From Candidatus Hydrogenedentota bacterium (GTDB lineage Bacteria > Hydrogenedentota > Hydrogenedentia > Hydrogenedentales > JAEUWI01): 64,000 nt of DNA. The position numbers were made by a program, and so were the translations under genes. Below the pieces are notes generated by a model. That model did no database searches. It had not been told where the DNA came from and worked only from the letters and a program-made list of their open reading frames with translations. Each line of letters opens with the position of its first letter. Position 1 is the stretch's first letter. The stretch spans positions 128,970-192,969 of the forward strand of contig JAXMOL010000007.1 of assembly GCA_034669905.1 (NCBI GenBank), read 5' to 3'. This document shows, piece by piece, positions 12,213-56,920 of the stretch.

Positions 12213-13673
12213 GTGGCCGGGCAGGTTCGCAGTGAGACGGAAGCCACTGTCCAGGGAATTTCAGGTGGAAGGGTCGTATCATTGAGGCATAACATTCTCA
12301 TCGTAGACGATGCGGAAATGAACGTAAAGATACTCGATCGCATGCTATCCGAGCTGGGCCATTGCATTGTGCCCGCCTACTCGGGCGAAGAGGCGCTTGC
12401 GCTTGCTGACAAGCATGACTTTTCGGTCGTGCTGCTCGACGTCAAGATGCCCGGGATGGACGGATACGAAGTGGCCCGGCGTCTCCGTGAAAAAACGGCA
12501 CCGAATTATCTTCCCATCCTCTTCGTAACCGCCTCGGCCGACCAGGAGGTCGAAGTAACCGATGGGTATACGTCCGGCGGTGTGGATTATCTGATCAAGC
12601 CGGTTAAGCCCGCGATCGTGCGCCGAAAGGTAGAGATTTTCTGCCAACTCCAGGAGAAGGAAAAGCAGATTGGTGCCCAGTTAACCCGTATCGAAGCGCA
12701 GAAAGCCCAGCTGGAAACCCAGTTGGATGAAATGCGCCTGCTGGAATCGGCCCGCGTAGAGAGTGAAATTCGTTATCGCTCGCTGGTGAGCCTCTCTCCC
12801 CAGCCCATCATCGTACAAGTCGGTGGAGAGTTGGTTTTTTACAATACGTCGGCCATGCACCTGTTCGGGGTCTTCGAAGATTCTGCGATGACGGGGCGAC
12901 CATTTCATAGCTTCGTTGTTGAGGAAGACCGACACGGCGTACAGCAGTGGATCGAGGAGATAGAGCGACGAGGAGGGCGCAGCGAGCCTATCGAGTGCAC
13001 CTTAGAGTCCCATGATCCCACCCGGGAAAAGCGGCAGGTGGAACTGCACGCCTGTTGCATCCTCTATGATGATAAAGAGGGGGTGCAGATGGCCATTCAA
13101 GATGTTACCGAGCACAAAATCATGGCCGAGAAGTTGCGCACGTTATCACAGGTGGACGGGCTGACCGGCGTCTGGAATCGGCGCAGTTTTGATGAGCAGA
13201 TTGAAAAAGAGATCCGGCGCCACATTCGCAGCGAAAAGTCGTTGGGGCTCATCATGATCGATCTTGATCAGTTTAAGAAATTCAACGACAATTATGGCCA
13301 TCATGAAGGGGATGGTTGTCTCAAAGGGACTGCGGATGCCATGCAGAAGGTGTGCGCCCGACCCGCCGACATGGTATCCCGTTACGGCGGGGAAGAGTTC
13401 GTTGTGCTACTTCCAGAAACCGGTGCGGAAGGGGCCAAACACCTGGCCTCCAGGCTGGTGGCCGAGGTCCATGCATTGGGGATCCGCCACGAACACAACC
13501 GTGGTCACGGGGTGGTGACCATCAGTTGTGGCGTGACGTCTCAGGTTCCCGGTCGCGATGCGACGCCCGCGCAATTCATCGAAGCGGCGGACGGCGCCCT
13601 TTATTTTACGAAGCAGAATGGCGGCAATGGCGCGTATCTGGACACCGAGGCCAATACTTCGGTGGATTCGTAA
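12213..13673 (+). CDS. Response regulator receiver-PAS-GGDEF diguanylate cyclase
   Basis: REC domain (ILIVDD...LLDVKMPGMDG). Coiled coil and PAS. GGDEF domain (RYGGEEFVVLL). Confidence 0.85.
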   Translation: MAGQVRSETEATVQGISGGRVVSLRHNILIVDDAEMNVKILDRMLSELGHCIVPAYSGEEALALADKHDFSVVLLDVKMPGMDGYEVARRLREKTAPNYLPILFVTASADQEVEVTDGYTSGGVDYLIKPVKPAIVRRKVEIFCQLQEKEKQIGAQLTRIEAQKAQLETQLDEMRLLESARVESEIRYRSLVSLSPQPIIVQVGGELVFYNTSAMHLFGVFEDSAMTGRPFHSFVVEEDRHGVQQWIEEIERRGGRSEPIECTLESHDPTREKRQVELHACCILYDDKEGVQMAIQDVTEHKIMAEKLRTLSQVDGLTGVWNRRSFDEQIEKEIRRHIRSEKSLGLIMIDLDQFKKFNDNYGHHEGDGCLKGTADAMQKVCARPADMVSRYGGEEFVVLLPETGAEGAKHLASRLVAEVHALGIRHEHNRGHGVVTISCGVTSQVPGRDATPAQFIEAADGALYFTKQNGGNGAYLDTEANTSVDS

Positions 13674-17114: not shown

Positions 17115-18035
17115 ATGTCAAAACCCGGATTCATGAATCGGCTCAAGAGCAAGCTGGAGAAGACGCGCACCAATCTGGTGGGCAACGTCAAGCGCGCGAT
17201 GGGTCGGCCCCACATCGACGAAGAGGCCTTTACCGCCCTGGAAGAAACCCTGATCGCAGCCGACGTTGGCGTGAGTACGACCCTCCAGATTGTGGAGGAC
17301 ATGCGCGCCGCCGTCACGGAAAAAAATCTGCAGGATGGGGAGGCCCTTATTGCCCAGCTGAAGGAAGAGCTCAAGACCCTGCTGGCACCGGGCGATCACG
17401 AACTCCATTGGTCGACATCCGAAGGGCCCCATGTGACCCTGGTGATGGGCGTAAATGGCTCCGGCAAGACAACGACCACCGGTAAACTGGCGGCAAAGCT
17501 CACTTCGGAGGGCAAGAATGTACTGCTGGGTGCGGCGGACACCTTTCGGGCCGCTGCCGCGGAACAGTTGCAGATTTGGGGCGAGCGGAGTGGTGCGACC
17601 GTCATCAGCCACCAGGAGGGTGCCGACCCGGCTTCCGTCGCCTTTGACGCCGCCGATGCCGCCGTGGCCCGCTCCGTCGACAACCTGCTTATTGATACGG
17701 CCGGCCGCCTGCACAACAAAGTAAACCTCATGGAAGAACTCAAGAAGATTCAGCGGGTCATCCAGCGTCGGATTCCGGCGGCTCCCCACGAAGTCTTGCT
17801 GGTGCTCGATGCCACTACGGGCCAGAACGGTCTCGAACAGGCCCGTCAGTTTACCGAGGCCATCGCGGTGACAGGTATCATCCTGACCAAGCTGGATGGC
17901 ACCGCCAAAGGTGGCATGTTGATTGCCATTCAGCGAGAGCTTGGTATTCCCATCAAGATGATCGGTATCGGCGAGGGGGTGGATGATCTGGATGTCTTCG
18001 ACGCCGAAGAATTTGTTGAGGCATTGTTCTCCTGA
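17115..18035 (+). CDS. ftsY: Signal recognition particle receptor FtsY
   Basis: NG domain with GVNGSGKTTT and DTAGR motifs. The 652-aa antisense ORF 17118-19076 is an artefact. Confidence 0.9.
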   Translation: MSKPGFMNRLKSKLEKTRTNLVGNVKRAMGRPHIDEEAFTALEETLIAADVGVSTTLQIVEDMRAAVTEKNLQDGEALIAQLKEELKTLLAPGDHELHWSTSEGPHVTLVMGVNGSGKTTTTGKLAAKLTSEGKNVLLGAADTFRAAAAEQLQIWGERSGATVISHQEGADPASVAFDAADAAVARSVDNLLIDTAGRLHNKVNLMEELKKIQRVIQRRIPAAPHEVLLVLDATTGQNGLEQARQFTEAIAVTGIILTKLDGTAKGGMLIAIQRELGIPIKMIGIGEGVDDLDVFDAEEFVEALFS

Positions 18036-19623: not shown

Positions 19624-20214
19624 GTGGACGATGAGGTTCGCCCCGGTATGAGCGAAATCGAAGATTGGGCGTTGGTAGCCCGCGCGCAGGGGGGCGATAT
19701 GGACGCCTTCCACGTGCTGATTGTGCGCTATCAACGGCCAGTTGTTCATTTCTGTTTTCGCATGCTCCAATCGGAGCAGGACGCGGAAGACGTGGCCCAG
19801 GAAGTCTTTGTCCGGGTCTATCGTTATCTGGGTCGCCTCACGCCACAGGCAAAGTTCTCGACGGTACTCTTCGGTATTGCCCGAAATCTCTGCCTGAATT
19901 TTATCCGGGATATGAAACGTCGTGGACGCGGTATGGGCCAGCCCCTGGATTCCCAGCCTGAGCTGGAGTCCAGCGTGCGCTCGCCGTCTCAGGAAGTCCA
20001 CCTGAGAGAAGTAGAGGCCTGTATCGCAGCGGCGATGTCCGAGTTGTCCGATGACCATCGTATGGTGCTGTACCTTCGCGACGTGGAGGGCCTGGATTAT
20101 GATGGCATCGCCCAGGTTATGAAGTGTCGTAAGGGCACGGTTCGAAGTCGCTTGGCCCGGGCCCGTGAGCAATTGCGCCAACACCTGATTCACTATGGAG
20201 ACGACCTGCTATGA
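19624..20214 (+). CDS. ECF (sigma-70 family) RNA polymerase sigma factor
   Basis: Region 2 and region 4 ECF pattern. 4-nt overlap with the downstream anti-sigma gene. Confidence 0.85.
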   Translation: MDDEVRPGMSEIEDWALVARAQGGDMDAFHVLIVRYQRPVVHFCFRMLQSEQDAEDVAQEVFVRVYRYLGRLTPQAKFSTVLFGIARNLCLNFIRDMKRRGRGMGQPLDSQPELESSVRSPSQEVHLREVEACIAAAMSELSDDHRMVLYLRDVEGLDYDGIAQVMKCRKGTVRSRLARAREQLRQHLIHYGDDLL

Positions 20215-20855
20215 GCACGCCCCATGTGCTGGACGAGTTGTCCGCCTATATCGACGGTGAGAGCCGGAATGCACCGGCGATCGCCCGCCATCTTCAGTCT
20301 TGTCCGGAGTGCGCCCGGCGGCATGTGGAATTGTCCAAACTCACCCGACACGTCCATGCCCTGCCCGCACCGGAAGTGCTCCCCTCGTTTGCGGCCCGCG
20401 TCGTGGCACGTCTTGACCAGGCCGACGCCCCACCCCGATGGCATGATCGTTTCCTCGTTCAGCATGCCCTCCCCACGGCCTGGGCCCTGGCCGCCGTGTT
20501 GCTCATCGTGGGCACGGCCTATGTCGTCATTCAGGAGGTGGAATCCCGTTCCGACCTGCCCTCAGTCGCGGAATCATCCCCGGCGCCCGTCGAACCCGAC
20601 CCGGAAGTCCTCGCCCGTATCCTGGATATGGGAATTTGGGAAGGGCCCTTCGGTGAAGACGAAGCGGAGGTCGCCGAGGAATCGGTGGATCTCAGCGTGG
20701 AACTGCTGATTGATTCCCTGGCCGCCATCGCGGGGGACGCCGAGACGGGCGAGTGGTACGAAGAGGAAGACCTGATGGCCGTTATGGAGGCCCTGGCCCA
20801 GGAAGATGTCCAGGTGTTGAGTGAACTGGCCCGGAACCACTGGGACGAAGGATAA
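20211..20855 (+). CDS. Zinc-finger anti-sigma factor (membrane)
   Basis: HLQSCPECARRH motif, a single TM, and coupling to the ECF sigma gene. Confidence 0.7.
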   Translation: MSTPHVLDELSAYIDGESRNAPAIARHLQSCPECARRHVELSKLTRHVHALPAPEVLPSFAARVVARLDQADAPPRWHDRFLVQHALPTAWALAAVLLIVGTAYVVIQEVESRSDLPSVAESSPAPVEPDPEVLARILDMGIWEGPFGEDEAEVAEESVDLSVELLIDSLAAIAGDAETGEWYEEEDLMAVMEALAQEDVQVLSELARNHWDEG

Positions 20856-21485
20856 GTGATGAAACGATTGGTAATCACCCTGTTGGTACTGAGCGGCTGG
20901 GCAGGTGGTGTGTGGGCGGCGCCCGAATCGCCTTCCCCGGGCACCCCTTCTGGCAGCAAAGGAAATGCGGAAAGCCGTCAATTGCTCGAGGAAATCCTCA
21001 TGGCGCGATTGACCCGCGAATTGGCCCTGGAAGATGAGCAGGCTGTGCTTCTGGTTCGCCATATGACCGAGTTCCGGGATCGTATGGCGGCGCTGCGTCG
21101 GGAGCGGGGCGAAAAAATGCGGGCCCTTCGACAGGTCGTGCGGGAAAGTAATGACGAATCCCGTATACAGCAGCTGATGGACGAAGTGCGGGCAGTCAAT
21201 GAAAAGAGCATGGCGGCCCGTAATGACGTGCTCGACTTTGACGGCTTCGAAATGACTACCTGGCAAAAGGCCCGACTCCTTGTATTTCTCAACGACTTTG
21301 AGGCCGACATGCGGCGTCTGTTGCGTCGGGCACAGGAACATCGTGCCAAAGAAACGGGCCGCCCCGCGCGGGGAGGCGGCGAAGGGCTTGCCGGGGGGCA
21401 TCGCGAAGACAAAAGGGGCCCCGCTGCAGGTTCGAAAGAACCCAACGAAAAGGAAGGCTCGAACGCCCCCGCACCATCCGGTTGA
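20856..21485 (+). CDS. periplasmic coiled-coil protein (Spy/CpxP-like?) of the ECF operon
   Basis: Signal peptide, helical repeats, low-complexity basic tail. Confidence 0.5.
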   Translation: MMKRLVITLLVLSGWAGGVWAAPESPSPGTPSGSKGNAESRQLLEEILMARLTRELALEDEQAVLLVRHMTEFRDRMAALRRERGEKMRALRQVVRESNDESRIQQLMDEVRAVNEKSMAARNDVLDFDGFEMTTWQKARLLVFLNDFEADMRRLLRRAQEHRAKETGRPARGGGEGLAGGHREDKRGPAAGSKEPNEKEGSNAPAPSG

Positions 21486-21551
21486 TGTCGCCATCCAATG
21501 CTGTGATACCATGCCCATCGACGCGCCCACGGAAGTTTTAAGGAGTAATCG

Positions 21552-22352
21552 GTGGAATATCTAAACGCAATCCTGTTGGCGGTGGTGGAGGGGATCACAG
21601 AATTCTTGCCGGTCAGTAGTACAGGCCATCTGATTCTCGCCGAATCACTCCTTCAACTCGGCGAAGACAAAGCCTTCACGAACGCCTTTATCGTAATCAT
21701 TCAGTTGCCCGCGATTCTGTCGGTGTGCATTTATTTCTGGGCAAAACTGTGGCCCATGAAAGGCGGCACCCTCGATTCAAAAACGGTGGTCCTGTGGGTG
21801 AAGGTCATCGTGGCCTTTCTGCCAGCCGTTGTCTTGGGACTGCTGTTTGACGACGTCATCGAGGCGCTCTTCAACGACACCGCAGTGGCTATCGCGCTGA
21901 TTGTGGGTGGGATCATCATTCTCCTCGTGGAACGACGTACTTATGAGGGAGCAACCGACTCCATTCATGACTTGACGTACAAACAGGCTATCTCCATCGG
22001 GTTCTGTCAGTGCCTGGCTATGATTCCGGGCACTTCCCGTTCTGGTGCCACCATTGTTGGGGGGCTTCTTCTGGGGGCGAGCCGGTCCGTGGCGGCAGAG
22101 TTTTCGTTTTTCCTCGCCATTCCCACCATGGTGGGTGCGACGACCTACACGATGTACAAGATCACGAAGAACGGATTGGAGTTTACGACCCATCAGTGGA
22201 CGCTCATTGCCATTGGTTCGATCGTGGCCTTCCTCGTGGCCTATGCCGTGGTCGCCTTCCTGATGGCATTTATCCAGAAACACTCCTTTAATGTTTTTGG
22301 CGTGTATCGAATCGTCATTGGCGTGATCGTGTTGTTGTTGGTGGCCACCTGA
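21552..22352 (+). CDS. uppP: Undecaprenyl-diphosphate phosphatase
   Basis: MEYLNAILLAVVEGITEFLPVSSTGHL start is canonical BacA/UppP. 266 aa. Confidence 0.92.
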   Translation: MEYLNAILLAVVEGITEFLPVSSTGHLILAESLLQLGEDKAFTNAFIVIIQLPAILSVCIYFWAKLWPMKGGTLDSKTVVLWVKVIVAFLPAVVLGLLFDDVIEALFNDTAVAIALIVGGIIILLVERRTYEGATDSIHDLTYKQAISIGFCQCLAMIPGTSRSGATIVGGLLLGASRSVAAEFSFFLAIPTMVGATTYTMYKITKNGLEFTTHQWTLIAIGSIVAFLVAYAVVAFLMAFIQKHSFNVFGVYRIVIGVIVLLLVAT

Positions 22353-22363
22353 CGGGTCCCTGA

Positions 22364-22831
22364 TTGATAAGGAAATGTGCTATGACCGCCCCGGAAACAG
22401 AAGAAGCCTCAGCGGCGTCACAACAGTTGGTGCTGGCCGGCATTCTCGTGATGCCCCTGGCCTACGTCGTCGCGGCCTACATCCTCCATGCCATTGACGT
22501 GCTGCCAACAGAGGGCTTCGCAGCATTGGACTCCCAGACCACCCTGCTGCTGGCAGGTGTGTTCCTGCTCTCCTGCATCCTGAGCGCCGTGGTCTCGCCC
22601 GTGCTCAAGAAAAAAATCCTGCAGGCCGGCGAAGTGGAGGGGAGCTTGGATCGTCAGACCCGCTTCAAAGCCTCTATGCTTGCCATGGCGACCTCCGAAT
22701 CGGGCGCCGCTCTCGGGCTTGTGCTGATCTTGCTGACCGGCAACTTACTTTATGGCACCCTCTTGTGCGCCCTGTCTTTTGCGGTAACCTGCTTCCACTT
22801 TCCACGCCGTCGTTGGTTGGAAGAAGGATAG
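22364..22831 (+). CDS. hypothetical membrane protein
   Basis: Four predicted TM helices. No recognisable motifs. Confidence 0.5.
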   Translation: MIRKCAMTAPETEEASAASQQLVLAGILVMPLAYVVAAYILHAIDVLPTEGFAALDSQTTLLLAGVFLLSCILSAVVSPVLKKKILQAGEVEGSLDRQTRFKASMLAMATSESGAALGLVLILLTGNLLYGTLLCALSFAVTCFHFPRRRWLEEG

Positions 22832-23055: not shown

Positions 23056-24240
23056 GTGGCCGTCTTGTCTAAACGACACGAAATTCTCAACGCTGCCTTG
23101 CGCGTCTTTCTCGATCTCAGTTGTATCGTGGGCGTGTACTGCGCCACCGTGTGGCTTGTGATTGGCGAAGAGACCGGTTACGTGCACCAGCTTCAAAACG
23201 GTTTGCCCTATGTGGAAGCCATGGTCGTGGTCTGGTTTCTCGTCGCCGCCGATCAGCGCTTGTTCTTGTCCCGCCGGAGTGAAGCCCTGGTGGCCTTGCT
23301 CTTCTCGGTTGCCAAGGCCTTTTTTACCGCGTTCTTGTTTACCGTATTCATTGTGGCCCTGTTTCTTCAGGAAGATCTTAACCGTACCTTCCTCTTCCTC
23401 TTCGGTTTCTTTGTGCTCTTTGGACTGTTAGCATTTCGCTTGATCCTCGGTCTGAGCCTGTGGAATCTGCGCCGACGTGGCTTTAACTCCCGTCGCATCC
23501 TGATTATCGGGAGCAACGAACGGACCCAAAAACTCGTGGGTATCCTCCATGCCAACGAGCACTACGGCTACCACGTGGAGGGCTTCCTGGAACATGACCA
23601 AGACCGGCGTCACCATCTGGAGTCCCTCGATGTACCCTACCTGGGCGACATTGAAGAATTGGACAAAGTGCTGATCAACCGGGTGATCGACGCGGTCTAC
23701 ATCGCGCTGCCCGTCCGCTCCCACTATGAAATGATCCAAAGCGCGGCCCACCTCTGCGAAGGGGTTGGCGTTTCGGTCCGATTCATGGCCGATCTCTTTC
23801 CCCTGCGAATGGCAACGAGTGATTTGTCCCGCGTCGGCGATGTGCCACTCCTGACCCTCTCCACCGAGTCCGAAGTGCAGCCGCCTTTCGCCCTTCACCG
23901 GGCCATCGACATGGGGGTGTCCCTGCTGTTGCTGGTTTTTCTTTCACCGATTTGTCTCCTGGTGGCACTCGCCATTAAAATTGATTCACGGGGACCGGTG
24001 TTAGTGCGTCGTCCCCGTCTGGGTCCGGGAGGTCATGCCTTCCAGGATATTGTATTTCGCACGACCGTCGGGGCATCATGGGGGGATAGCGATGCCACGC
24101 TGACGCGGGTGGGGAGAATCCTGCGCCGCTACGGCATCGACGAATTGCCCCAATTGCTAAATGTATTATCCGGTGACATCAGCCTTGCAGGCCCCACGCA
24201 CTCCGGTGCCCAGGGTGGCAAGGTGGATAGCCCGGTCTGA
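23056..24240 (+). CDS. Polyprenyl glycosylphosphotransferase paralog, C-terminally truncated/degenerate (likely inactive)
   Basis: Aligns with the next gene through the membrane and linker region. The KFRSM motif is VFRTT, GDISLAGPTH replaces [10 protein letters not shown], and the ORF then stops, so the PGxTGxWQ catalytic tail is missing. Confidence 0.7.
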   Translation: MAVLSKRHEILNAALRVFLDLSCIVGVYCATVWLVIGEETGYVHQLQNGLPYVEAMVVVWFLVAADQRLFLSRRSEALVALLFSVAKAFFTAFLFTVFIVALFLQEDLNRTFLFLFGFFVLFGLLAFRLILGLSLWNLRRRGFNSRRILIIGSNERTQKLVGILHANEHYGYHVEGFLEHDQDRRHHLESLDVPYLGDIEELDKVLINRVIDAVYIALPVRSHYEMIQSAAHLCEGVGVSVRFMADLFPLRMATSDLSRVGDVPLLTLSTESEVQPPFALHRAIDMGVSLLLLVFLSPICLLVALAIKIDSRGPVLVRRPRLGPGGHAFQDIVFRTTVGASWGDSDATLTRVGRILRRYGIDELPQLLNVLSGDISLAGPTHSGAQGGKVDSPV

Positions 24241-25788: not shown

Positions 25789-26154
25789 CTACCGACTGGG
25801 CTTTCGGGTCGGCGCGCACGTGCGGCAGCTCTTCGACGTGTTATTCCCCCTTCGGGCCGCGTCTGTCATGACGTGGGAAACCGGCACTTGTGCACGGGGC
25901 ATTTCGTCTGGCAGGATTAGGTAGCTAAGAGCGCTATACCCGCCAAAATGGGCAAGAACACGTTGGGGTAGCAGGTGCTAATTTCGGGGCGTACGAAGGC
26001 AGACCCGTTGGGGTGCGGAAGCGCACTGACGCGGGCGTGGCGGCAGCGAGATGAAATCGGCGAAAGGCACCGGCGACAGCGGGTTGCCCTCTCCGGGGTT
26101 GTATACTCCGACGGGTAGTGTGCTATGGTTTTATCGCATCACGAGGAGTGTATA

Positions 26155-28000
26155 CGTGTATCAAATTACCGCGAAATCGGGCAATTCCAAGGGGACTTCC
26201 TGGGTTGTGGAGCACGCACCTCTTGTCTTCGGGCGGGATATGAATTGCGATATCAAGGTGAGTGATCCGCTCGTTTCCAGGCGCCATTGTGAAGTGGCGC
26301 TGGCGGATGGAAAAGTAACCCTTCGGGATCTGGGTAGCAGCAATGCCACATTCGTCAATGGCGAGCCCATCTCAGAGGCGGATCTGGCCGCTGGCGATGA
26401 AGTGGCCGTCGGAAGTGCTGTTTTTCTGGTCACGCGGGTCCGTGAAGTTGGTACCCAGACACCGCCGCCCTCCCAGGGGAATTCGCCCACTTCTTCCCTG
26501 ATCATCGGCGAGCCGGTCTATATGAAACGGGATAGCGAGACCTTGTTCTCTCAGGCCCGCCCCCGCACGGGGGAGGATCTGGCCGATCTGTTCACACTCA
26601 GTCGCGCCCTGAGTGAGGCAAGTACGACCTCGGGATTGATCACGGCATTAATCCAGCGGGTCGCGGAACGCTTTGAGCCCGAAGCGGTATGCGTCGCCCT
26701 CCATCATGCGACGGACGGTACGATGACCTGCTTCCCCCCCGGCAGCGAAAACAACTTTTTGTCCAAGACGTCTCCAGCGGAGATGGTAAACACCGTATCC
26801 ACCCGGCAGCGTGGGATGCTGATACCAGAGAGTTGTCGGAGCCAGGGCGAGGCCGGTATGCGGACCACCGCTGCCGCGCCCATAATTCTGGGAAATGATG
26901 TTATCGGGGCATTGCTCGTGCAGGCGACTTCCCCGGCAAAGATCTATGATGAGACCGACCTCGAATTCCTCATGGCCCAGGCCCTGACTACGGCACCGTA
27001 TTTCCGCGCAATCGAACGGATGGAACTACTGGAGCGAGAAAACCGACGCCTGGTGACCAGCGCGGCCGAAGGGCTGGCCATTATTGGCAAGAGTGACGTT
27101 ATTAACAGGGTCCGTACCCTGGCAAAAGACTGCGCCCGCTCCGATATGAATGCGCTGATTCTCGGCGAGACGGGAACCGGAAAAGAGCTGGTGGTCAGCA
27201 TGATTCACCGCCTGTCTGATCGCTCCGACCATCCCCTGACCATCATTAACTGTGCCGCCATTCCGGCGGAATTGTTGGAAAGTGAATTGTTCGGGTATGA
27301 ACGTGGTGCCTTCACCGGTGCCCATGGGCAAAAGAAGGGCACCTTCGAAGAGAGCGATGGCGGTACCCTGTTCCTCGACGAACTTTGCGATCTGAGCCTG
27401 CCCAATCAGGCACGCCTTCTGCGCGTGATTGAGACCGGCGTGTTTCGACGTCTCGGCGGTCAGGCAGACATTACCGTGAACGTGCGGGTGATTGCCGCAA
27501 CCAATAAGTCCATTTCCGACGAAGTAGATGCAGGGCGTTTCCGACGGGACCTGTATCACCGGCTCAATACCTTCGAGATCGTGATACCGCCCCTCCGAGA
27601 GCGGCGTTCCGACATTGCTGTTCTGGCGGAGCACTTTCATCGCGTGGCGCAAGAGCGCCTGGGCTATCGCACCATGGGTTTTTCTGCGGAAGCCATCGAA
27701 TACCTCAACAATCAGCCGTGGCCGGGCAACGTCCGGGAGCTGCGCAACGTGGTCGAGCGTGCCATGGTGGTCGCGCCTTATGATGCGATTCGACCAGAAG
27801 ACCTGCAGCGAGATGTGGTGTACCGGGCCGAACGCAAGACCGACACCGAGCCCATACTCACGTTGGCGGAAATGGAAAAGCGCCAGATCATCAAGGCGCT
27901 GAACCGCCATGACGGTAATGTGAAGGCGGCTGCAGAGACCTTGGATATCGGACGAAGCACCCTCTATCGCAAAATTGGCGAGTACGATCTGCCCAGTTAA
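26155..28000 (+). CDS. FHA-GAF-sigma-54 activator (AAA+)-Fis HTH transcriptional regulator
   Basis: FHA domain (VFGRDMNCDIKVSDPLVSRRHC). GAF domain. GETGTGKE Walker A. GAFTGA sigma-54 contact motif. C-terminal HTH. The GTG at 26155 is preferred because of an AGGAG Shine-Dalgarno 7 nt upstream. Alternative ATG at 26051. Confidence 0.88.
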
Positions 28001-28269
28001 TGGTCACTTTCCATGGGCGGAGGGGGCTTCCCCTGCAAGCATTTTCCCTGGCTGGGCGTTTTCGGACGTGGCGGCAAAAAAAGATGTGGTGTCGAAAAAA
28101 TTCGTAAGTCATTTTATATCAGTGGTTTGTCGGGTGTTTTCGCTTACGTGCCGGTTTTCAGCATCTTTCCAAGAAGTAGGGGCCTTCGACAAGGTAGGTG
28201 CCCAATTCTTGACGATGGGGCCCCCCTTCCCCTGCGCGCCCCGTGCCTTTCGGCTTTTCTGCGGGACTT

Positions 28270-28284
28270 TTCTCAAAATGAGAA
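28270..28284 (+). promoter_or_regulatory. candidate enhancer (UAS) palindrome TTCTCAAAATGAGAA
   Basis: Perfect 6-bp inverted repeat with a 3-bp spacer, about 105 bp upstream of the sigma-54 -24 element. Confidence 0.35.
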
Positions 28285-28380
28285 CGCATCTGTCTCGAAT
28301 CGGATTTCGCCCCCTCCCCCGTTACCGATAACCTGAGGGACTTTCGGCCTTCCTTCTCAAAAAGTACGCGATAGCGTACT

Positions 28381-28396
28381 TGGCATCCTAATTGCA
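28381..28396 (+). promoter_or_regulatory. sigma-54 (-24/-12) promoter TGGCATCCTAATTGCA
   Basis: GG and GC dinucleotides with exact consensus spacing (TGGCAC-N5-TTGCA). Immediately preceded by the palindrome AGTACGCGATAGCGTACT at 28363-28380. Confidence 0.6.
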
Positions 28397-28497
28397 TAGG
28401 CTCTATCAGGTCCACAGTAGGCTGGTGTGTCAGCAGAAGTCTGTGGATCTGAGAGACTTTCCCATCCCGGGAGGGGCGTAGTCAGGAGTTCCCCAGT

Positions 28498-28674
28498 ATG
28501 TTTACCATCGAGTCAGAAAAACCCAGTGATGAGTACACGACCTCGCGTATGAAAAAATGGTACATGGTCCAGTTCAAAGGCTATGAGGTCGTGGATGAGC
28601 GCGAGGTGCCCAAAGTGACCTCCCAGGGACGGTTGACCTATGAGTGTCGTTGGTATCTCCGCCAGGTATCGTGA
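28498..28674 (+). CDS. small ORF (58 aa) downstream of the sigma-54 promoter
   Basis: AGGAG 9 nt upstream of the ATG. Encodes MFTIESEKPSDEYTTSRMKKWYMVQFKGYEVVDEREVPKVTSQGRLTYECRWYLRQVS. Below the 60-aa track cutoff. Confidence 0.4.
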   Translation: MFTIESEKPSDEYTTSRMKKWYMVQFKGYEVVDEREVPKVTSQGRLTYECRWYLRQVS

Positions 28675-28724
28675 GGCGCACCGCCGATTAACCCGTCTTC
28701 ACTGCGCAGGGTCAGGCGCACCCC

Positions 28725-31658
28725 TCAGTCGGCGGGGGGGAGTGCGGCCATCTCCGCGCGCAGCCGCGCCCGTCCTTCGTCGCTCAGGCCTTCGGATTGC
28801 AGCAGTGTGTCATACTTGGCACGGGCCTCTGCGTTGCGCCCGGATTGGGCCAGTGCTTTCGCCAGGGCCCACTGGGTGTCTACGTGCTGGGGGAAACTGA
28901 TTTCACTCGCTTCGAGCAGCGTCACCGCCTCCTTTACCCGCCCCGTTCGAATCATGGTGTCGGCCCAGTGAACCGCGGTGATGGCCTTGCGCTCGTCCGC
29001 GAGGCACACGTGGGCAACCTGAAAAAGTCGGTCGGCCACGCCATATTCCTGGATACCCGCCGAAACGATGCCCAGATTCAGCGCACTTTCACAGGGCGCA
29101 TTACCGGCATCGGCAGCCCCCTGATAGGTTTCATGCAGCATCCGCGCGGCCCAGCCGTAGACTTCCTGGGGTTTCAGCGGGTTATCCACAGGGTGGGTAC
29201 GTACGCCTGCAAGCAAAACCCGGCTGGCCTGATCGAGCTGCTCCACACCACCGGTCAATACGGCGTGTACGGCCGCGACCTGGGGGAGGGGCTCGATGTC
29301 CAAGCCAGCCAGCGTGTCACAGACCGCCAGAATGGTTTCTTTTAACCGGGGTACCTGGTTCTGCTCGTAGGCGAAGCCGGCAAAACGACTCCAGGTCGCC
29401 GGACGCATGGGGCCTGCATTCAAGGAGGCGACGTAGGCATCCCCTGCACTGGTGACGTCCTGATAGCCTTCAAGGTGTACGGTGGCAAGCCAATCGAATG
29501 CGATGGCCAACCCTTCATCGGCACCCGTGTCGTCGCCACTCCGCTGGGCGAGCTGGAGTTCGTCAATCATACGATAGAGGGCGTCCCGCATGGGGCCGAA
29601 GTCGCCGCTTTCCCGGGCGAAGGTCAGGAAGAGTTCCCAGGAGCGGTTGTCCCGTCCCTGATCGGCCTGCACCGCACCGAGGAGCGCCCGCTCAGTGGCC
29701 GCCGGGTCGCCGAGACTGGATTCAATACGGGCAATCATACGGTAGAGATCGCCGGCATTCTCAGCACCATGATCGATGGCCTGTTTCAGGTAGTTCCGCG
29801 CTTCCAACCAATGGGCATTCGCGACCGCCGGATCGGCGTTGGGGGTAAAGCTCCGCTCAATGATAGCGGCAATGGATTCGACCCGCCCAAGCGTTTCTTC
29901 GGCAATAGGGAAGCGGGGCGCGGCTTCCAGGACGTGTTGGGCATGCATCCGCGCTTCGTCCAGATAGCCCTTGGCTTCCGTAGCCCCGGCCGCCCCTTGC
30001 TGCATGGCCTGCTGGGCGAGGAGAAGGCTGGCCCGGGCCATGGGAAGGCGGGTCAGCAGGTAGTAGGGGTTCTGCTCCAGGGAACGGTTGAAATGGGGAC
30101 GGCTTTCGCCGAGTTTGCCCTCATCTACGAGGGTCATGCCAATACGCCGTGAGGCGTGCCAGTTCCAGGGGGCAGCTGCTTCCGCGCGGGCGTAGGCTTC
30201 CCGTGCCGTGGCCAGCTCCCCGTCGGCGTGGGCCCGCATGCCCGTGTAGAAATGATATTCGCCCGCGAAGTCTTTGGTTATCTGTCGGGTGCTTAGTACC
30301 AGCAGCAGGATGAAGGCCACGCGGGCACCATGGCGCTGCCACGCCGGAGCCTGCTTTTCTGCGGCCGCTTCCGATGCCCAGAGCCCGTCCAGTATTCCCA
30401 GTAACAAGAAGAAGACGGCCGCCGTTACGGGAACCCGCAGGTTAAACCCGAAGAGTCCGTCGATAGCAAAGGCGGTAAAGAGGGCCGCCAGGGTGAAGCC
30501 CATGCGGCGTTGCCCGGGGGTGCTGTTTCGTGCGACGTAGAGGAGGCTGTAGCTGATACCCAGCAACAGGGTGGCCAGGTAGAGGCCGGCGGCCGCAAGC
30601 CCGCCGTCGATACCCATCTCGATGAGGTCATTGTGGACGTGGCCATTCATCCGTATTTCCTGGGCGAACCAATCCTGTTCGAAGGGCGTCCAATAGGGGG
30701 CATAGGCCAGTCCGTAGACCGCCGGCCCATGGCCCAGCAGGGGCGCGTCCAGCAGCATGTTGGTGGCACTGACGTAAGATTGATAGCGGAGGAGGAGGGA
30801 GAGGTCCAGGGGAAAGGCGTAGCCGGTTCGGGTGTAGGTCCAATACATGGCGCCTGCCAGGGCGGTTATTCCCAGCACGGCCACGAGGGATACGGTCGTC
30901 ACCACGGCGCCCGTGGGGCGTTTCGGGTGGCGAAGCAGGGCATAGCCCACGGCGACCAGCACCGCGGCGCCGGCCAGGGCAATCCAACCGGCCCGTTGAT
31001 CGGTGCGGTAAAGATGAAACAAGAGGAAGGGGAGGAGCCACGGCGTCCAGCGGTAGCCCATACGGTAGAGCCCAATCACCATGATGACCGCCAGAATGAG
31101 GGCATGGGCGGCGTAGTTGGGGTTACCGAAGGTGGCGGGCAAATTGGTGTAGGTGTCGCTGGTGGTGTCTTCCCAGGGGAAGGGATCGAGCCCGGAGAAT
31201 TGCATCACCGCATAGAGGGCAGCCACGGTCATGGCCACGCAAAAGATCGCAAAAAAACGGGTGACCTGTGCCGTGGTGTGAAAGACCTGACTGGCAAGCC
31301 AATAGAGGGCGAAGAGGGAGAAGAAGCGCCCCGTCTCCAGCAGGCTGATAGCACGGAATTCCGAAAACAAGGCGCTGACCAGGAAGAATCCCAGCAGGCA
31401 GAGGAGCACTTCCCGGAAGACGGGTGGACGACGCAAGGGGATGCGGGTAATCCACGTCAGTACGACATAGCTTCCTGTCAGGATAAGAGCGGCCCAACCG
31501 GTGAGGAGTTCCTTGATGTGAATGGTGGGATCGTTGGTGCCAAAATACATAATGAGCACGAGGGTAAACAGGAAGACGCCCAGCGCGGCGCGGTAGCCGG
31601 TGGCCAGCTTGGAAGACGATTCGGTCACGAAGTTCTCCTGGGGAGTTTGTATCGGCAC
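28725..31658 (-). CDS. O-antigen ligase/Wzy-like polymerase domain protein fused to a long TPR-repeat region
   Basis: N-terminal half has about 12 TM helices with Wzy_C-like loop. C-terminal half (about 450 aa) is TPR/helical repeats. Confidence 0.8.
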   Translation of the reverse strand: MPIQTPQENFVTESSSKLATGYRAALGVFLFTLVLIMYFGTNDPTIHIKELLTGWAALILTGSYVVLTWITRIPLRRPPVFREVLLCLLGFFLVSALFSEFRAISLLETGRFFSLFALYWLASQVFHTTAQVTRFFAIFCVAMTVAALYAVMQFSGLDPFPWEDTTSDTYTNLPATFGNPNYAAHALILAVIMVIGLYRMGYRWTPWLLPFLLFHLYRTDQRAGWIALAGAAVLVAVGYALLRHPKRPTGAVVTTVSLVAVLGITALAGAMYWTYTRTGYAFPLDLSLLLRYQSYVSATNMLLDAPLLGHGPAVYGLAYAPYWTPFEQDWFAQEIRMNGHVHNDLIEMGIDGGLAAAGLYLATLLLGISYSLLYVARNSTPGQRRMGFTLAALFTAFAIDGLFGFNLRVPVTAAVFFLLLGILDGLWASEAAAEKQAPAWQRHGARVAFILLLVLSTRQITKDFAGEYHFYTGMRAHADGELATAREAYARAEAAAPWNWHASRRIGMTLVDEGKLGESRPHFNRSLEQNPYYLLTRLPMARASLLLAQQAMQQGAAGATEAKGYLDEARMHAQHVLEAAPRFPIAEETLGRVESIAAIIERSFTPNADPAVANAHWLEARNYLKQAIDHGAENAGDLYRMIARIESSLGDPAATERALLGAVQADQGRDNRSWELFLTFARESGDFGPMRDALYRMIDELQLAQRSGDDTGADEGLAIAFDWLATVHLEGYQDVTSAGDAYVASLNAGPMRPATWSRFAGFAYEQNQVPRLKETILAVCDTLAGLDIEPLPQVAAVHAVLTGGVEQLDQASRVLLAGVRTHPVDNPLKPQEVYGWAARMLHETYQGAADAGNAPCESALNLGIVSAGIQEYGVADRLFQVAHVCLADERKAITAVHWADTMIRTGRVKEAVTLLEASEISFPQHVDTQWALAKALAQSGRNAEARAKYDTLLQSEGLSDEGRARLRAEMAALPPAD

Positions 31659-52362: not shown

Positions 52363-52593
52363 TCCCCATGTAAACGACCAATCCACGGGCGTAAGCAGGG
52401 GCTATCGGTGGCTGTCTTTTCCCCCGCAGGCGATGGTATCATCGCAGGCGGTTTTTATATTCGGTTGGCCGGTGTCTTTCTGGCATGTTTGTATCGGGTG
52501 AGGCGAGGGTGAGGGTGTGTGCAAGGCCTGTGCCTCTTGCGTGGGGTGGATACCGGCGGCGTGTCGGGTGTGGGCCGGTTTTTGGGAGAGCGC

Positions 52594-54147
52594 ATGAATA
52601 CGAATGGTAATGAAATTGAATCCCGCCTGTGGGCGGCGGCGGATGAGCTGCGGGCGAATTCGAAGCTGAAGTCGTCGGAGTATGCCGCCCCGGTGTTGGG
52701 GCTGGTCTTCCTCCGCTTTGCAGACCACAAGTTCCAGGTGGCGGCGAAGGAATTGGAAGGCCAAGGCGGCGGACGGCGCAAGATTGGCCCGACGGATTAT
52801 CAGGCTCAGGGCGTGCTCTATCTGCCCGAGGCGGCCCGCTTTTCCACCCTCATCCAGATGCCCGAAGGCGGCAACATCGGCGCGGCCATCAACGACGCCA
52901 TGCGCGCCATTGAGACGGAGAATTCCGACCTCAAAGATGTCCTCCCCAAGACCTACAACCGCTTTGAGAACACCCTCCTCAAAGAACTCCTCAAGACCAT
53001 GAACTCCATCCCCATGGACATCCAGGGGGACGCCTTCGGTAAGATTTATGAGTATTTCCTGGGCCACTTCGCCATGAGCGAGGGCCAGAAGGGCGGCGAG
53101 TTCTTCACGCCCACGGCCATCGTCCAGTTGATTGTCGCCATCATCGAGCCCTTCCACGGGCGCATCTACGACCCCGCCTGCGGCTCCGGCGGCATGTTTG
53201 TCCAGTGCGCACGCTTCGTCACCGAGCACCAGCAGAACCCCAGCGCGGAATTGAGCGTCTTCGGCCAGGAAAAGACGGACGAAACCGTCCGCCTCGGCAA
53301 GATGAACCTCGCCGTCCACGGCCTCAGCGGCGACATCCGCGAGGGCAACACCTACTACGAAGACCTCCACCAGGCCCCCGGCAAGTTCGACTTCGTCATG
53401 GCCAATCCCCCGTTCAACGTGGACCGGGTGGACAAAGACCGCCTTAAGGACGACCCCCGCTTCCCCTTTGGTATGCCGCGCACGGACAATGCCAACTACC
53501 TCTGGATTCAGATGTTCTACAGTGCCCTGAGCGCCACGGGCCGGGCGGGCTTTGTCATGGCCAATTCCGCCTCCGATGCGCGCGGTTCCGAGCTGGACAT
53601 CCGCCAGCAGTTGATCCAGGCCCGCGCCGTCGATGTGATGGTAGCCGTGGGCTCAAATTTCTTCTACACCGTCACCCTGCCCTGCACCCTGTGGTTCTTC
53701 GACAAGGGCAAGGCGAAGACGCCCCGCGCCGACCAGGTCCTCTTCCTCGATGCCCGCCACCTCTACCGGCAGATCGACCGCGCCCACCGCGACTGGACAC
53801 CCGACCAAATCGAATACCTCGCCAACATCGCCCGCCTCTATCGCGGCGAGGCCGTGGAAAACCTCCACGGCGGCGCCGACTTGTTGGAAGAGCACTTTGG
53901 CAAAAATCCGAAATACACCGACGTGCCCGGCCTCTGTAAGGTCGCCACGCTGGACGAAATCGAGGCCCAGGGCTGGAGCCTCAACCCCGGTCGCTACGTG
54001 GGCGTCACCGCCCGTGAGGAGGACGACTTCGACTTTCTGGAGCGCCTGGAGGAGCAGAACGAGGAGCTGGAACTTCTAAACGTCGAGGCGCGGGAACTGG
54101 AAGAGCGGATCGCGGAAAATGTGGTGCAGTTGTTGGAGGCGGACTGA
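52594..54147 (+). CDS. hsdM: Type I restriction-modification methyltransferase subunit
   Basis: HsdM_N-like start ([13 protein letters not shown]). N6-MTase NPPF motif (MANPPFN). The ATG at 52594 with a GGGAGAG Shine-Dalgarno is preferred over the track ATG at 52519. Confidence 0.9.
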
Positions 54148-55970: not shown

Positions 55971-56131
55971 TGTGGCGACTCTTGCTCTTTCAATACCTAG
56001 AGCCGTTAGCCAATTAACCCTAGAAATGAGAGTAGAGTTCAATGCTCAAGGGAAAGTGTAAAGAGTCTCGGAGTAGGCTACGTGAAGACACTCCGGATGC
56101 GACAGGCTCAGTTTAGGCCCAAAACGATCTT

Positions 56132-56920
56132 ATGTACGGAGGCACAATGGTTCCATTTGAAGATGACAATACAAAGGCCTATGTTTATCTCTTGCGAATC
56201 GAAATTGCCCTACGAGAGCTTCTTCGAGCTTCGCTCGAATCCGAATTCGGGCAATCCTGGAGAAAAAGGCTCCCTGGCGAACTGTTGAAAAAGATCAAAT
56301 CTTCGCAGTCAGAAGAGCATCGTCCCCAGTTTGATTTCGTCCGTTTGGGGCCGCTCTACTACTTGACATTTGGAGAATTACTTATCCTTCTTAAACAAAA
56401 ATCGGGGCAATCCGTAGCTCAACGTTTGGGTGGAGATGGAATCCTTAAGCAACTAGAATGTGTCTTCTCGCCACGCAATGCGATTTGCCACTCGCGACCT
56501 GTATCGTCGGTAGGGTTACAAGCAATAAGCTTGCTCTATGTTGAGATAGAGACAGCACTTTCAAAGGAGGTCTTGGTCCAGCTCGTATCGCAACCAGATA
56601 CGGGGCTCACTCAAGTCGATGTTGCCAAGGGCCTCGTTCCCGCCCTCAAAAACTTCATGGCCGATTTGCCAAATCTACCGTCCACACTCCCGGTTCCTGA
56701 AGCGTTTGTAACTGCGAAGAATCAGTTCTGGTGGGCGGACGATGAGCTTGCTGGATTCGATCGTTCACGAGTCGAAGCCGTGATTGGCCTGGTTCGTGAC
56801 TACAACAACCTTCCTGTTGGTGTTGGATCTGCTGGAACACGACTCACATTCTGCGAGCGGAATGCCCTCAAAGAACGGATTAAAGACGCAATAGCCGAGT
56901 TGGAGAGTACGACACTATGA
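56132..56920 (+). CDS. Swt1-like HEPN domain protein (predicted RNase)
   Basis: FGQSWRKRLPGELLKKIK...FGELLILLK...LKQLECVFSPRNAICHSRPV matches the Swt1-HEPN layout with an R-x4-H motif. About 48% GC. Confidence 0.6.
   Translation: MYGGTMVPFEDDNTKAYVYLLRIEIALRELLRASLESEFGQSWRKRLPGELLKKIKSSQSEEHRPQFDFVRLGPLYYLTFGELLILLKQKSGQSVAQRLGGDGILKQLECVFSPRNAICHSRPVSSVGLQAISLLYVEIETALSKEVLVQLVSQPDTGLTQVDVAKGLVPALKNFMADLPNLPSTLPVPEAFVTAKNQFWWADDELAGFDRSRVEAVIGLVRDYNNLPVGVGSAGTRLTFCERNALKERIKDAIAELESTTL

What the first reader, a model, noticed from the sequence alone, without database searches (positions are those of the whole stretch)
28270..28674. Near-consensus sigma-54 promoter with upstream palindrome driving a 58-aa ORF right after the FHA-GAF sigma-54 activator gene
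TGGCATCCTAATTGCA (28381-28396) has GG/GC at exact -24/-12 spacing. A perfect palindrome TTCTCAAAATGAGAA sits about 105 bp upstream, a typical enhancer distance. A second palindrome AGTACGCGATAGCGTACT abuts the promoter. About 90 nt downstream, an AGGAG Shine-Dalgarno precedes an unannotated 58-aa ORF. This looks like a compact EBP-target unit inside a polysaccharide cluster. The small protein may be a regulator or a peptide acting on glycan synthesis or export.
Basis: seen in the sequence. Interest (0 to 1): 0.75.

Follow-up and report, generated by a model that had tools for sequence, protein, structure and literature searches.

The report
Conserved sigma-54 switch driving tiny protein
A sigma-54 promoter with its own activator-binding sites, next to its activator gene, drives one 58-residue protein of an undescribed family; the unit is conserved across an uncultured phylum (Hydrogenedentota), the mechanism is ordinary, and what the protein does is unknown.

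Summary
TGGCATCCTAATTGCA (28381-28396, + strand) is the only strong sigma-54 (-24/-12) element in the 64-kb window. A -24/-12 element sits at the same place in all 12 orthologous Hydrogenedentota lineages examined.

The palindrome TTCTCAAAATGAGAA (28270-28284) is the first of two tandem sites of the form TTCYCA-N3-TGRGAA. They lie 22-23 bp apart, about 130 and 108 bp upstream of the predicted start. The pair is found in 11 of 12 lineages, against a chance of about 0.008 per locus.

The FHA-GAF-AAA+-HTH activator gene lies directly upstream in every locus. It always has an intact GAFTGA loop and an almost invariant DNA-recognition helix.

The 58-codon ORF (28498-28674) is a real gene. pN/pS is 0-0.13, and 644 of 823 differences fall at codon position 3.

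The second palindrome (28362-28381) is not conserved.

The protein folds as a small beta-alpha-beta-beta domain. It has no Pfam, NCBIfam, PDB or fold match. Distant relatives exist elsewhere. Some follow a different sigma-54 promoter, and others sit beside an ECF-like sigma factor and a Ser/Thr kinase.

Verdict: a classical activator/sigma-54 unit with a new, uncharacterised small-protein output. Its link to polysaccharide synthesis rests on gene order only.

The parts
26051..28000 (+). Bacterial enhancer-binding protein (sigma-54 activator): FHA, GAF, AAA+ (Sigma54_activat, GAFTGA at residue 419, Walker A GETGTGKE), AAA lid and Fis-type HTH_8. The true start may lie about 35 codons downstream, because the orthologues are 613-622 aa.
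   Evidence: Pfam domains. It falls below every NCBIfam equivalog cut-off. GAFTGA and Walker A are invariant in 6 orthologues; the recognition-helix segment GRSTLYRK is invariant in every locus, with DIGRSTLYRK in all but L015/L016. Its C-terminus lies directly upstream of the small gene in every locus that has upstream sequence.
28176..28202 (+). Direct repeat GTAGGGGCC / GTAGGTGCC, 18 bp apart, about 200 bp upstream of the promoter. It is conserved only in the three closest lineages and its role is unknown. Membership of the unit is uncertain.
   Evidence: Alignment of the window, L018 and L005.
28270..28284 (.). Upstream activator site 1: the perfect palindrome TTCTCA-AAA-TGAGAA, centred 104 bp upstream of the T of TGG (about -130 from the predicted start).
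   Evidence: Sequence. It is the only zero-mismatch match to TTCYCANNNTGRGAA in 64 kb. A homologous site lies at -90 to -105 in 11 of 12 lineages.
28292..28306 (.). Upstream activator site 2, degenerate in this genome: GTCTCGAATCGGATT, 22 bp from site 1 centre to centre (about -108 from the predicted start).
   Evidence: It aligns with better-preserved second sites in L018, L005, L002, L015, L006, L001 and L021-23. In the window it matches only 6 of 10 consensus positions, so it fell below the scan threshold.
28362..28381 (.). Palindrome AAGTACGC-GATA-GCGTACTT abutting and overlapping the -24 element. It is not conserved, so it is either a lineage-specific operator or chance.
   Evidence: Present in the window. 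It is absent from the aligned positions of L018 and L005. About 15% of shuffles give a palindrome with 7-bp arms.
28381..28396 (+). Sigma-54 promoter: TGGCAT-CCTAA-TTGCA, with -24 GG at 28382-83 and -12 GC at 28394-95. The predicted transcription start is near 28406-28408.
   Evidence: Weight-matrix score 22.8 bits against 13.2 for the next best site in the window. A -24/-12 element lies at the same place in all 12 lineages.
28407..28497 (+). Predicted 5' leader of about 91 nt. It has a 5'-terminal hairpin (28407-28451), a second hairpin (28457-28475) and the Shine-Dalgarno AGGAG (28484-28488).
   Evidence: Fold with z = -2.1 to -2.45 in the window. Leaders of other lineages often begin with a hairpin, but their z-scores run from -1.9 to +0.9 and the sequence is not conserved beyond close relatives. 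There is no Rfam match.
28498..28674 (+). Gene for a 58-aa cytoplasmic protein of an undescribed family (core residues 13-55, fold beta-alpha-beta-beta). It is monocistronic.
   Evidence: Orthologues at 73-97% identity. pN/pS is 0-0.13, and 644 of 823 differences are at codon position 3. AlphaFold2 pLDDT is 82.8 and 77.3. A profile search finds 48 representative clusters. There is no match in Pfam, NCBIfam, PADLOC or PDB.
28725..31658 (-). Context: a convergent 977-aa Wzy_C (O-antigen ligase/polymerase-like) membrane protein with C-terminal TPR repeats. Its stop codon lies 50 bp from the small ORF's stop codon.
   Evidence: Pfam. The convergent arrangement is conserved in most lineages. No intrinsic terminator was found between the two genes.

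Best explanation
This is a dedicated two-gene regulatory module. Its activator gene encodes an FHA-GAF-AAA+-HTH enhancer-binding protein. Immediately downstream lies that protein's own sigma-54 promoter, which drives a single 58-residue protein.

Proposed mechanism:
1. The activator binds through its Fis-type HTH to two tandem palindromic sites (TTCYCA-N3-TGRGAA), 22 bp apart, about 130 and 108 bp upstream of the start.
2. Its N-terminal FHA domain (a phosphothreonine reader, implying input from a Ser/Thr kinase encoded elsewhere) and its GAF domain (ligand or inhibitory module) gate the ATPase.
3. When active, the AAA+ ring reaches the sigma-54 holoenzyme bound at TGGCAT-N5-TTGCA by DNA looping. 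It contacts sigma-54 through its GAFTGA loop and uses ATP to open the promoter.
4. The transcript starts near 28407, carries a leader of about 91 nt, and is translated from AGGAG/ATG into the small protein.
5. That protein is a compact, aromatic-rich beta-alpha-beta-beta domain. It is the module's only local output, so it is presumably its effector. It most likely works by binding another macromolecule that controls the surrounding polysaccharide-assembly genes.

Shown here: all sequence elements, their conservation, the coding status of the ORF, and the absence of any other sigma-54 site in 64 kb.

Inferred: that the adjacent activator is the one that binds these sites, the nature of the input signals, the transcription start, and above all the target and role of the small protein.
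For: - Promoter. It is unique in the window and scores far above any other site. A -24/-12 element is kept at the same position in all 12 lineages while the flanking intergenic sequence diverges.
- Upstream sites. The pair has 22-23 bp spacing. In 11 of 12 lineages site 1 lies at -90 to -105 from the T of TGG, with site 2 22-23 bp downstream; in L012 the pair lies further upstream, at -165/-143. Chance is about 0.008 per locus. In the window's first site both arms carry the matching C-to-T / G-to-A change, so the symmetry is preserved.
- Activator. GAFTGA and Walker A are intact, and the recognition-helix segment GRSTLYRK is invariant in every locus (DIGRSTLYRK in all but L015/L016), matching the conserved sites. 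Its gene is directly upstream of the small gene in every locus, even where the downstream neighbour differs.
- ORF. Synonymous sites are near saturation (pS 0.57-1.0) and pN is 0-0.12. The confident fold is reproduced with a shallow and a deep alignment.
- Polysaccharide context. The block truncated Bac_transf / Bac_transf / activator / small gene / convergent Wzy_C-TPR is kept down to the most distant orthologues, e.g. L021. The window cluster extends to glycosyltransferases, an epimerase and a flippase.
- Literature. Sigma-54 has been linked broadly to control of the cell exterior and exopolysaccharide (PMC3162934, title and abstract).
Against: - There are no transcript, binding or expression data.
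- rpoN is not in the window, and its presence in the genome could not be checked.
- The window's second upstream site is degenerate (6 of 10 positions). One lineage (L012) has its sites displaced to -165/-143.
- No Ser/Thr kinase gene lies in the window.
- Nothing links the small protein physically to polysaccharide enzymes. The activator/small-gene pair persists next to a restriction enzyme gene in L012/L013. Distant family members lie in unrelated contexts.
Confidence: 0.72

Rival explanations
1. The small protein is not an effector of glycan synthesis. It is a feedback partner of its own activator: an anti-activator or co-activator that binds the FHA, GAF or AAA+ domain, as PspA does for PspF or HrpV for HrpS. 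The true regulon of the activator would then lie elsewhere in the genome.
For: The activator and small gene are inseparable in all loci, regardless of the downstream neighbour. The family has an invariant Ser and a nearly invariant Thr just before the helix, and the activator carries a phosphothreonine-reading FHA domain. Distant homologues sit beside a Ser/Thr kinase.
Against: No other sigma-54 site or upstream-site match exists in 64 kb, so no other local target is visible. Distant homologues occur without any enhancer-binding protein gene nearby. The Thr-x-Ser can be explained more simply as a beta-strand residue plus a helix N-cap.
Confidence: 0.15
2. The main regulatory output is the RNA. 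With no terminator, sigma-54-driven transcription reads through the short ORF into the 3' end of the convergent Wzy_C-TPR gene. It would then lower that gene's expression by antisense pairing or transcriptional interference. This could act alongside the protein.
For: No intrinsic terminator was detected around 28675-28724. The convergent gene ends 10-70 bp after the ORF in most lineages.
Against: The ORF is under strong purifying selection at the amino-acid level. The unit is retained where another gene is inserted (L001/L019) or where the neighbour is a restriction enzyme gene (L012/L013). The terminator scan is a simple consensus scan that can miss terminators.
Confidence: 0.1
3. A different enhancer-binding protein, encoded elsewhere, activates this promoter. 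The adjacency of the FHA-GAF activator gene would then be only syntenic.
For: No binding data exist. Bacteria often encode many such activators.
Against: Adjacency holds in every locus across deep divergence. A near-invariant recognition helix is matched by a conserved site motif. Cognate activator genes next to their sigma-54 targets are the usual arrangement (established knowledge).
Confidence: 0.06
4. The promoter-like string is a chance match and the ORF is transcribed from elsewhere.
For: An exact consensus match appears in 11 of 100 shuffles of the window.
Against: The element is conserved in 12 lineages against a diverged background. No sigma-70-like promoter was found in the region.
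Confidence: 0.02

Closest known systems
Classical enhancer-binding-protein / sigma-54 units with tandem upstream sites (NtrC at glnAp2, NifA at nif promoters, PspF at pspA, ZraR at zraP); from established knowledge
   Same: A -24/-12 promoter; two dyad-symmetric sites roughly 100-140 bp upstream; an activator with AAA+ domain, GAFTGA loop and C-terminal Fis-type HTH; the activator gene next to its target.
   Different: The sensory region is FHA plus GAF rather than a receiver domain. The protein fails every NCBIfam equivalog cut-off (NorR 331 vs 476, PEP-CTERM regulator 319 vs 503, NifA 306 vs 529). The site motif TTCYCA-N3-TGRGAA is its own. The only local target is a single 58-codon gene.
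FHA-domain enhancer-binding proteins of Myxococcus xanthus (Jelsbak, Givskov and Kaiser 2005, PNAS 102:3010; seen only as a reference in PMC12288465; content from memory)
   Same: An FHA domain fused to a sigma-54 activator, which implies control by Ser/Thr kinase signalling.
   Different: Different phylum; an extra GAF domain; a conserved dedicated small-protein target. No homology beyond the shared domains was tested.
LuxO-Qrr and GlrR-GlmY type circuits (an activator drives a sigma-54 promoter whose product is a small regulator); from established knowledge, LuxO reviewed in PMC4878744
   Same: The logic: a dedicated activator next to a sigma-54 promoter that makes one very small product, which would then carry the signal onward.
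   Different: Here the product is a translated, folded protein under purifying selection, not a small RNA. There is no Rfam match.
PEP-CTERM/exosortase regulator PrsR and other sigma-54 control of exopolysaccharide loci (PMC1569441, PMC3162934)
   Same: A sigma-54 activator embedded in an exopolysaccharide locus that also contains TPR proteins.
   Different: No receiver domain. The activator scores below the TIGR02915 cut-off. No exosortase or PEP-CTERM genes were seen among the window proteins scanned.
Alba-like and other small basic beta-hairpin nucleic-acid binders
   Same: They are the top, though weak, structural neighbours. The small size, the long beta-hairpin and the basic core (core pI 9.5; distant members pI 10-11) also fit.

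Membership tests
Sigma-54 (-24/-12) promoter | GG and GC dinucleotides separated by exactly 10 nt, within the TGGCAC-N5-TTGCW consensus | tested here: met
   TGGCATCCTAATTGCA at 28381-28396. It departs from TGGCAC-N5-TTGCW only by T for C at position 6 (TGGCAT for TGGCAC), so 10 of the 11 specified positions match.
Sigma-54 (-24/-12) promoter | Intergenic, oriented toward a downstream gene, and conserved in orthologous loci | tested here: met
   It lies 117 bp upstream of the ATG on the same strand. A -24/-12 element is at the equivalent position in all 12 lineages.
Sigma-54 (-24/-12) promoter | Activator-binding sites about 80-150 bp upstream | tested here: met
   Tandem dyads centred 104 and 82 bp upstream of the T of TGG. 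The pair is present in 11 of 12 lineages.
Sigma-54 (-24/-12) promoter | The genome encodes sigma-54 (rpoN) | not testable with these tools
   rpoN is not among the window proteins scanned. Whole genomes of relatives could not be searched. It is implied only by the intact GAFTGA activator.
Sigma-54 (-24/-12) promoter | Transcript starts about 12 nt downstream of the GC, dependent on rpoN and the activator | not testable with these tools
   This needs 5'-end mapping or reporter assays.
Bacterial enhancer-binding protein (sigma-54 activator) | AAA+ Sigma54_activat domain with Walker A and the GAFTGA sigma-54 contact loop | tested here: met
   PF00158 E = 1.7e-64. GAFTGA at residue 419 and GETGTGKE, invariant in 6 orthologues.
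Bacterial enhancer-binding protein (sigma-54 activator) | C-terminal Fis-type helix-turn-helix | tested here: met
   PF02954 E = 2.1e-15. The recognition-helix segment GRSTLYRK is conserved in all loci.
Named activator equivalogs (NorR, NifA, NtrC, PrsR/PEP-CTERM regulator, PspF and others) | Score above the NCBIfam equivalog cut-off | tested here: not met
   All 25 listed hits are below their cut-offs, e.g. NorR 330.8 vs 476 and TIGR02915 318.8 vs 502.6.
Any described protein family, for the 58-aa protein | Significant match to a Pfam, NCBIfam or PADLOC model, or to a PDB sequence | tested here: not met
   No hits in NCBIfam or PADLOC. Pfam gives only sub-threshold noise (THSD1_N E = 0.011, 15.9 bits vs cut-off 27). 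The best PDB sequence hit has E = 0.13.
Alba / IF3-C-like nucleic-acid-binding fold, for the 58-aa protein | Significant structural superposition with the same topology | tested here: not met
Known RNA families (leader or small RNA) | Rfam covariance-model match | tested here: not met
   No match at E <= 1 in 27900-28800.

The most novel reading that the evidence does not exclude
The 58-aa protein may represent a new, widespread class of small cytoplasmic output proteins wired directly to alternative-sigma systems that Ser/Thr kinases control. In Hydrogenedentota it is the sole target of an FHA-domain sigma-54 activator. In other, Planctomycetota-like contigs, distant homologues sit divergently from an ECF-like sigma factor gene paired with a giant Ser/Thr kinase-WD40 protein. 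In yet another lineage a homologue follows an independent sigma-54 promoter. The protein, perhaps via its conserved Thr-x-Ser, would relay or feed back kinase signalling onto envelope or polysaccharide functions.
Probability: 0.15. Interest if true: 0.7.

Novelty: new member of a known kind. Interest (0 to 1): 0.42.

Why it matters
This gives a candidate phylum with very little experimental genetics one cleanly defined regulatory circuit, with activator, binding motif, promoter and product all mapped. That circuit can be rebuilt in a heterologous host.

It also flags a conserved small-protein family that has no annotation in any library searched. The family is repeatedly placed under dedicated alternative-sigma control. 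If this protein controls the neighbouring Wzy-type polysaccharide machinery, it would be a new kind of small regulator of envelope glycan assembly.

The regulatory mechanism itself is textbook. The value lies in the unknown effector and in the well-conserved binding motif, which allows the regulon to be predicted in complete genomes.

Tried and rejected
- Rfam on 27900-28800: no family, so no known riboswitch or small RNA.
- Consensus scans for sigma-70 promoters and terminators: none in 27800-28900.
- Leader RNA: the window's leader folds somewhat better than shuffles (z = -2.1 to -2.45). Leaders of other lineages do not (z = -1.9 to +0.9), and their sequence is not conserved. I therefore do not claim a conserved RNA element.
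- Second palindrome as an operator: rejected as a conserved feature.
- Other targets of the activator in the window: none. The one-mismatch promoter matches at 17912, 24174, 8481 and 52520 are at chance frequency (5 found, 4.06 expected). They either lie inside genes or break the GG. The two-mismatch matches to the site motif are also at chance level.
- The other 649-aa ORF (372-2321) as a paralogous activator: it is a NodU-like carbamoyltransferase.
- Paralogues of the small gene in the window: none.
- Is sigma-54 control a general property of the wider family? No. It holds for one further lineage (L028/L029) but not for L024-27 or L030-33.
- Locus searches with broad alignments failed for lack of a conserved stretch. 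The metagenome scan returned only four loci.
- The ~300-aa exported proteins that follow distant homologues have no relative in the window.
- Literature searches found nothing describing this module or this protein family.

Full report
**1. What is in the sequence**

- TTCTCAAAATGAGAA is at 28270-28284.
- AGTACGC-GATA-GCGTACT is at 28363-28380. It actually has 8-bp arms and spans 28362-28381.
- TGGCATCCTAATTGCA is at 28381-28396, with GG and GC at the canonical spacing.
- AGGAG is at 28484-28488, 9 nt before the ATG.

The upstream protein is FHA + GAF + Sigma54_activat + AAA lid + HTH_8. It has GAFTGA and Walker A intact.

On statistics alone the promoter match is only suggestive. There is 1 match against 0.12 expected, and 11 of 100 shuffles give at least one. 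Palindromes of this size are common by chance. The case therefore rests on comparison with relatives.

**2. Where the window comes from, and its relatives**

The small protein has orthologues at 73-97% identity in metagenome assemblies and MAGs labelled Candidatus Hydrogenedentes/Hydrogenedentota. More distant orthologues, at 50-54%, occur in Hydrogenedentales, including a complete 7.9-Mb chromosome (L021, OW818658.1).

I retrieved the surrounding DNA for 12 distinct lineages. In every locus with upstream sequence, the gene directly upstream ends with the same Fis-type HTH (...GRSTLYRK...).

The larger block is kept from the window to L021:
- a truncated Bac_transf paralogue;
- a full-length Bac_transf;
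- the activator;
- the small gene;
- a convergent Wzy_C-TPR gene.

In the window this block sits in a polysaccharide cluster. The cluster includes BacA, GT4 and GT2 glycosyltransferases, an epimerase, a third Bac_transf and a Polysacc_synt/MurJ-like flippase.

**3. The promoter and its upstream sites are conserved while the rest diverges**

All 12 lineages carry a -24/-12 element 79-124 bp upstream of the ATG in the eight lineages measured:

| Lineage | Element |
|---|---|
| window, L018 | TGGCATCCTAATTGCA |
| L005 | TGGCACCCTAATTGCA |
| L002 | TGGCACTCTTATTGCT |
| L015 | TGGCACCCTTTTTGCG |
| L006 | TGGCACTGAAGTTGCT |
| L017 | TGGCATTGTAATTGCT |
| L001, L019 | TGGCGCGCTACTTGCA |
| L012 | TGGCCCGAATATTGCT |
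| L021, L023 | TGGCCTGCTTCTTGCT |
| L022 | TGGACTGCTTCTTGCT |

In an eight-lineage alignment, the invariant columns between the upstream sites and the start codon are essentially TTGGC and TTGC.

A weight matrix built from these sites scores the window site at 22.8 bits. Nothing else in 64 kb scores above 13.2.

In most lineages they are centred about 104 and 82 bp upstream of the T of TGG. The pair is detected in 11 of 12 lineages, against about 0.008 per locus in shuffles.

The window is the one locus where the pair falls below threshold. Its first site is perfect, and both arms carry the matching change that keeps the symmetry. Its second site (28292-28306) has decayed to 6 of 10 positions.

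The second palindrome at 28362-28381 is not present in the closest relatives. I treat it as lineage-specific or chance.

**4. The ORF is a real gene**

Over the gap-free 126-nt core, synonymous differences are near saturation (pS 0.57-1.0) while pN is 0-0.12. That gives pN/pS of 0-0.13. Of 823 pairwise differences, 644 fall at codon position 3.

Thirty residues are invariant among eight orthologues. AlphaFold2 gives the same compact fold with an 8-sequence and a 50-sequence alignment (pLDDT 82.8 and 77.3):
- a short strand at residues 13-14;
- a helix at 17-25;
- a long beta-hairpin at 29-40 and 46-56.

The protein has no signal peptide and no hydrophobic segment. The conserved core is basic (pI 9.5), and distant relatives are strongly basic (pI 10-11).

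**5. What the small protein is not**

**6. The wider family**

A profile search of 1.84 billion representatives finds 48 clusters at E <= 0.001. Nearly all are proteins of 47-95 aa sharing T-x-S-R-[LV]-[RK]-x-W-[WY]-[LM]...F-x-G-Y...P...G-R-[IL]-x-Y...W-x-L. Their contexts differ.
- **Three lineages (L024, L025, L026/27).** The gene is divergent from a ~240-aa ECF-like sigma factor gene, which is followed by a 1460-1494-aa Ser/Thr kinase-WD40 protein. Downstream of the small gene lies a conserved ~300-aa Tat-exported, Cys-rich protein. The shared upstream motif AGTGTAACA looks like an ECF-type promoter, not a sigma-54 promoter.
- **One lineage (L028/L029).** A tandem paralogue is preceded by a perfect TGGCACAGCGGTTGCT, with a different palindrome (GTGTACGAAATCGTACAC) about 110 bp further upstream.
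- **Four further loci.** None shows a sigma-54 motif.

Sigma-54 control is therefore a property of the Hydrogenedentota clade and at least one other lineage, not of the whole family. The recurring theme is a dedicated alternative-sigma regulator. In two context types there is also a link to Ser/Thr phosphorylation: the FHA domain here, and the kinase there. The second context type resembles the kinase/WD40/ECF expansions described in Planctomycetes (PMC8567305, PMC11032199). The taxonomic assignment of those contigs is my inference.

**7. Mechanism**

The best-supported reading is a classical enhancer-dependent switch.
1. The activator binds the two dyads.
2. FHA and GAF inputs gate its ATPase.
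3. By DNA looping, its GAFTGA loop contacts the sigma-54 holoenzyme at 28381-28396.
4. Transcription starts near 28407.
5. A monocistronic mRNA is translated into the small protein.

No other sigma-54 site or dyad match occurs in 64 kb, so the small protein is the only local output. Whatever the activator does to the surrounding polysaccharide genes would have to pass through this protein, or through read-through transcription.

The protein's own function is inferred only from gene order. I lean toward a protein-binding or nucleic-acid-binding regulator acting on the adjacent assembly genes, but I hold this weakly.

Rivals are listed separately:
- a feedback partner of the activator;
- antisense read-through into the convergent Wzy_C-TPR gene, given that no terminator was found;
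- a non-adjacent activator;
- a chance match.

**8. Comparison with known systems, and novelty**

The architecture matches NtrC/NifA/PspF-type units. FHA-containing activators are known from Myxococcus (reference seen; content from memory). Sigma-54 control of exopolysaccharide loci is well documented (PMC3162934, PMC1569441).

The activator is not an equivalog of any named regulator. What is new is the specific module: its binding motif, and a conserved one-gene output that encodes an undescribed small-protein family. Literature searches found no description of it.

I file it as a new member of a known kind, with an uncharacterised effector.

**9. Verdict**

Interest is moderate. The regulatory logic is ordinary. 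The conserved, unannotated small protein and its repeated association with alternative-sigma and Ser/Thr-kinase signalling are worth following up.

Noticed in passing
window 28176-28202: Direct repeat GTAGGGGCC / GTAGGTGCC, 18 bp apart, about 200 bp upstream of the sigma-54 promoter. It lies in a block conserved in the window, L018 and L005 only; the other lineages have shorter intergenic regions. Function unknown, possibly a site for a second regulator.
   Followed up: partly
window 23056-24240 (also L001 5026-6210, L002 4985-6169, L021 854-2104): A Bac_transf paralogue whose catalytic-domain match covers only profile positions 2-107 of 179. It always sits just upstream of a full-length Bac_transf gene. 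This looks like a conserved truncated or non-catalytic copy of the initiating sugar transferase.
   Followed up: partly
L024 5147-7174; L025 2390-4511; L026 607-7191; L027: Distant homologues of the small protein form another conserved module. A giant Ser/Thr kinase-WD40 gene and a ~240-aa ECF-like sigma factor gene lie on one strand. The small gene and a ~300-aa Tat-exported Cys-rich protein lie on the other. The shared AGTGTAACA motif lies in the divergent promoter region.
   Followed up: partly
L029 290-520 and 940-1161; L028 334-349: Two tandem paralogues of the small protein, separated by a terminator-like hairpin. Only the second is preceded by a perfect sigma-54 element (TGGCACAGCGGTTGCT), with its own palindrome GTGTACGAAATCGTACAC about 110 bp upstream.
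   Followed up: partly
L012 1046-1678, L013 929-1561: In one lineage the activator/small-gene pair is followed by an Eco29kI-type restriction enzyme gene instead of the Wzy_C-TPR gene. The pair therefore behaves as a unit independent of its downstream neighbour.
   Followed up: no
L001 10644-11858 (= L019): A 404-aa gene with no Pfam match is inserted between the small gene and the Wzy_C-TPR gene in one lineage. By eye its product looks like a coiled-coil protein with a signal peptide.
   Followed up: no
window 26051-26155: The activator ORF in the window is about 35 codons longer at its 5' end than its orthologues (649 aa against 613-622 aa). The real start is probably downstream of 26051.
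   Followed up: no
window 19624-22831: An ECF sigma factor gene, an anti-sigma gene (zf-HC2 in L001), a Metal_resist/Spy-like protein gene, BacA and a 155-aa gene of unknown function lie between cysS and the sugar transferases. Their order is the same in L001 and L002. This is a second, separate envelope-stress regulator beside the polysaccharide cluster.
   Followed up: no
window 12213-13673: A response regulator-PAS-GGDEF diguanylate cyclase gene lies about 13 kb upstream of the module. It could be relevant if the polysaccharide is under c-di-GMP control.
   Followed up: no
window 52519-62445: A complete type I restriction-modification system (HsdM, HsdS, an AAA protein and HsdR) lies at the right-hand end of the window.
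   Followed up: no
window 17912-17928: Near-palindromic TGGCATGTTGATTGCCA matches the loose sigma-54 pattern on both strands. It lies inside the FtsY/SRP54-type GTPase gene and misses the strict TGGCAY-N5-TTGCW consensus by one position. I judge it a chance match.
   Followed up: partly
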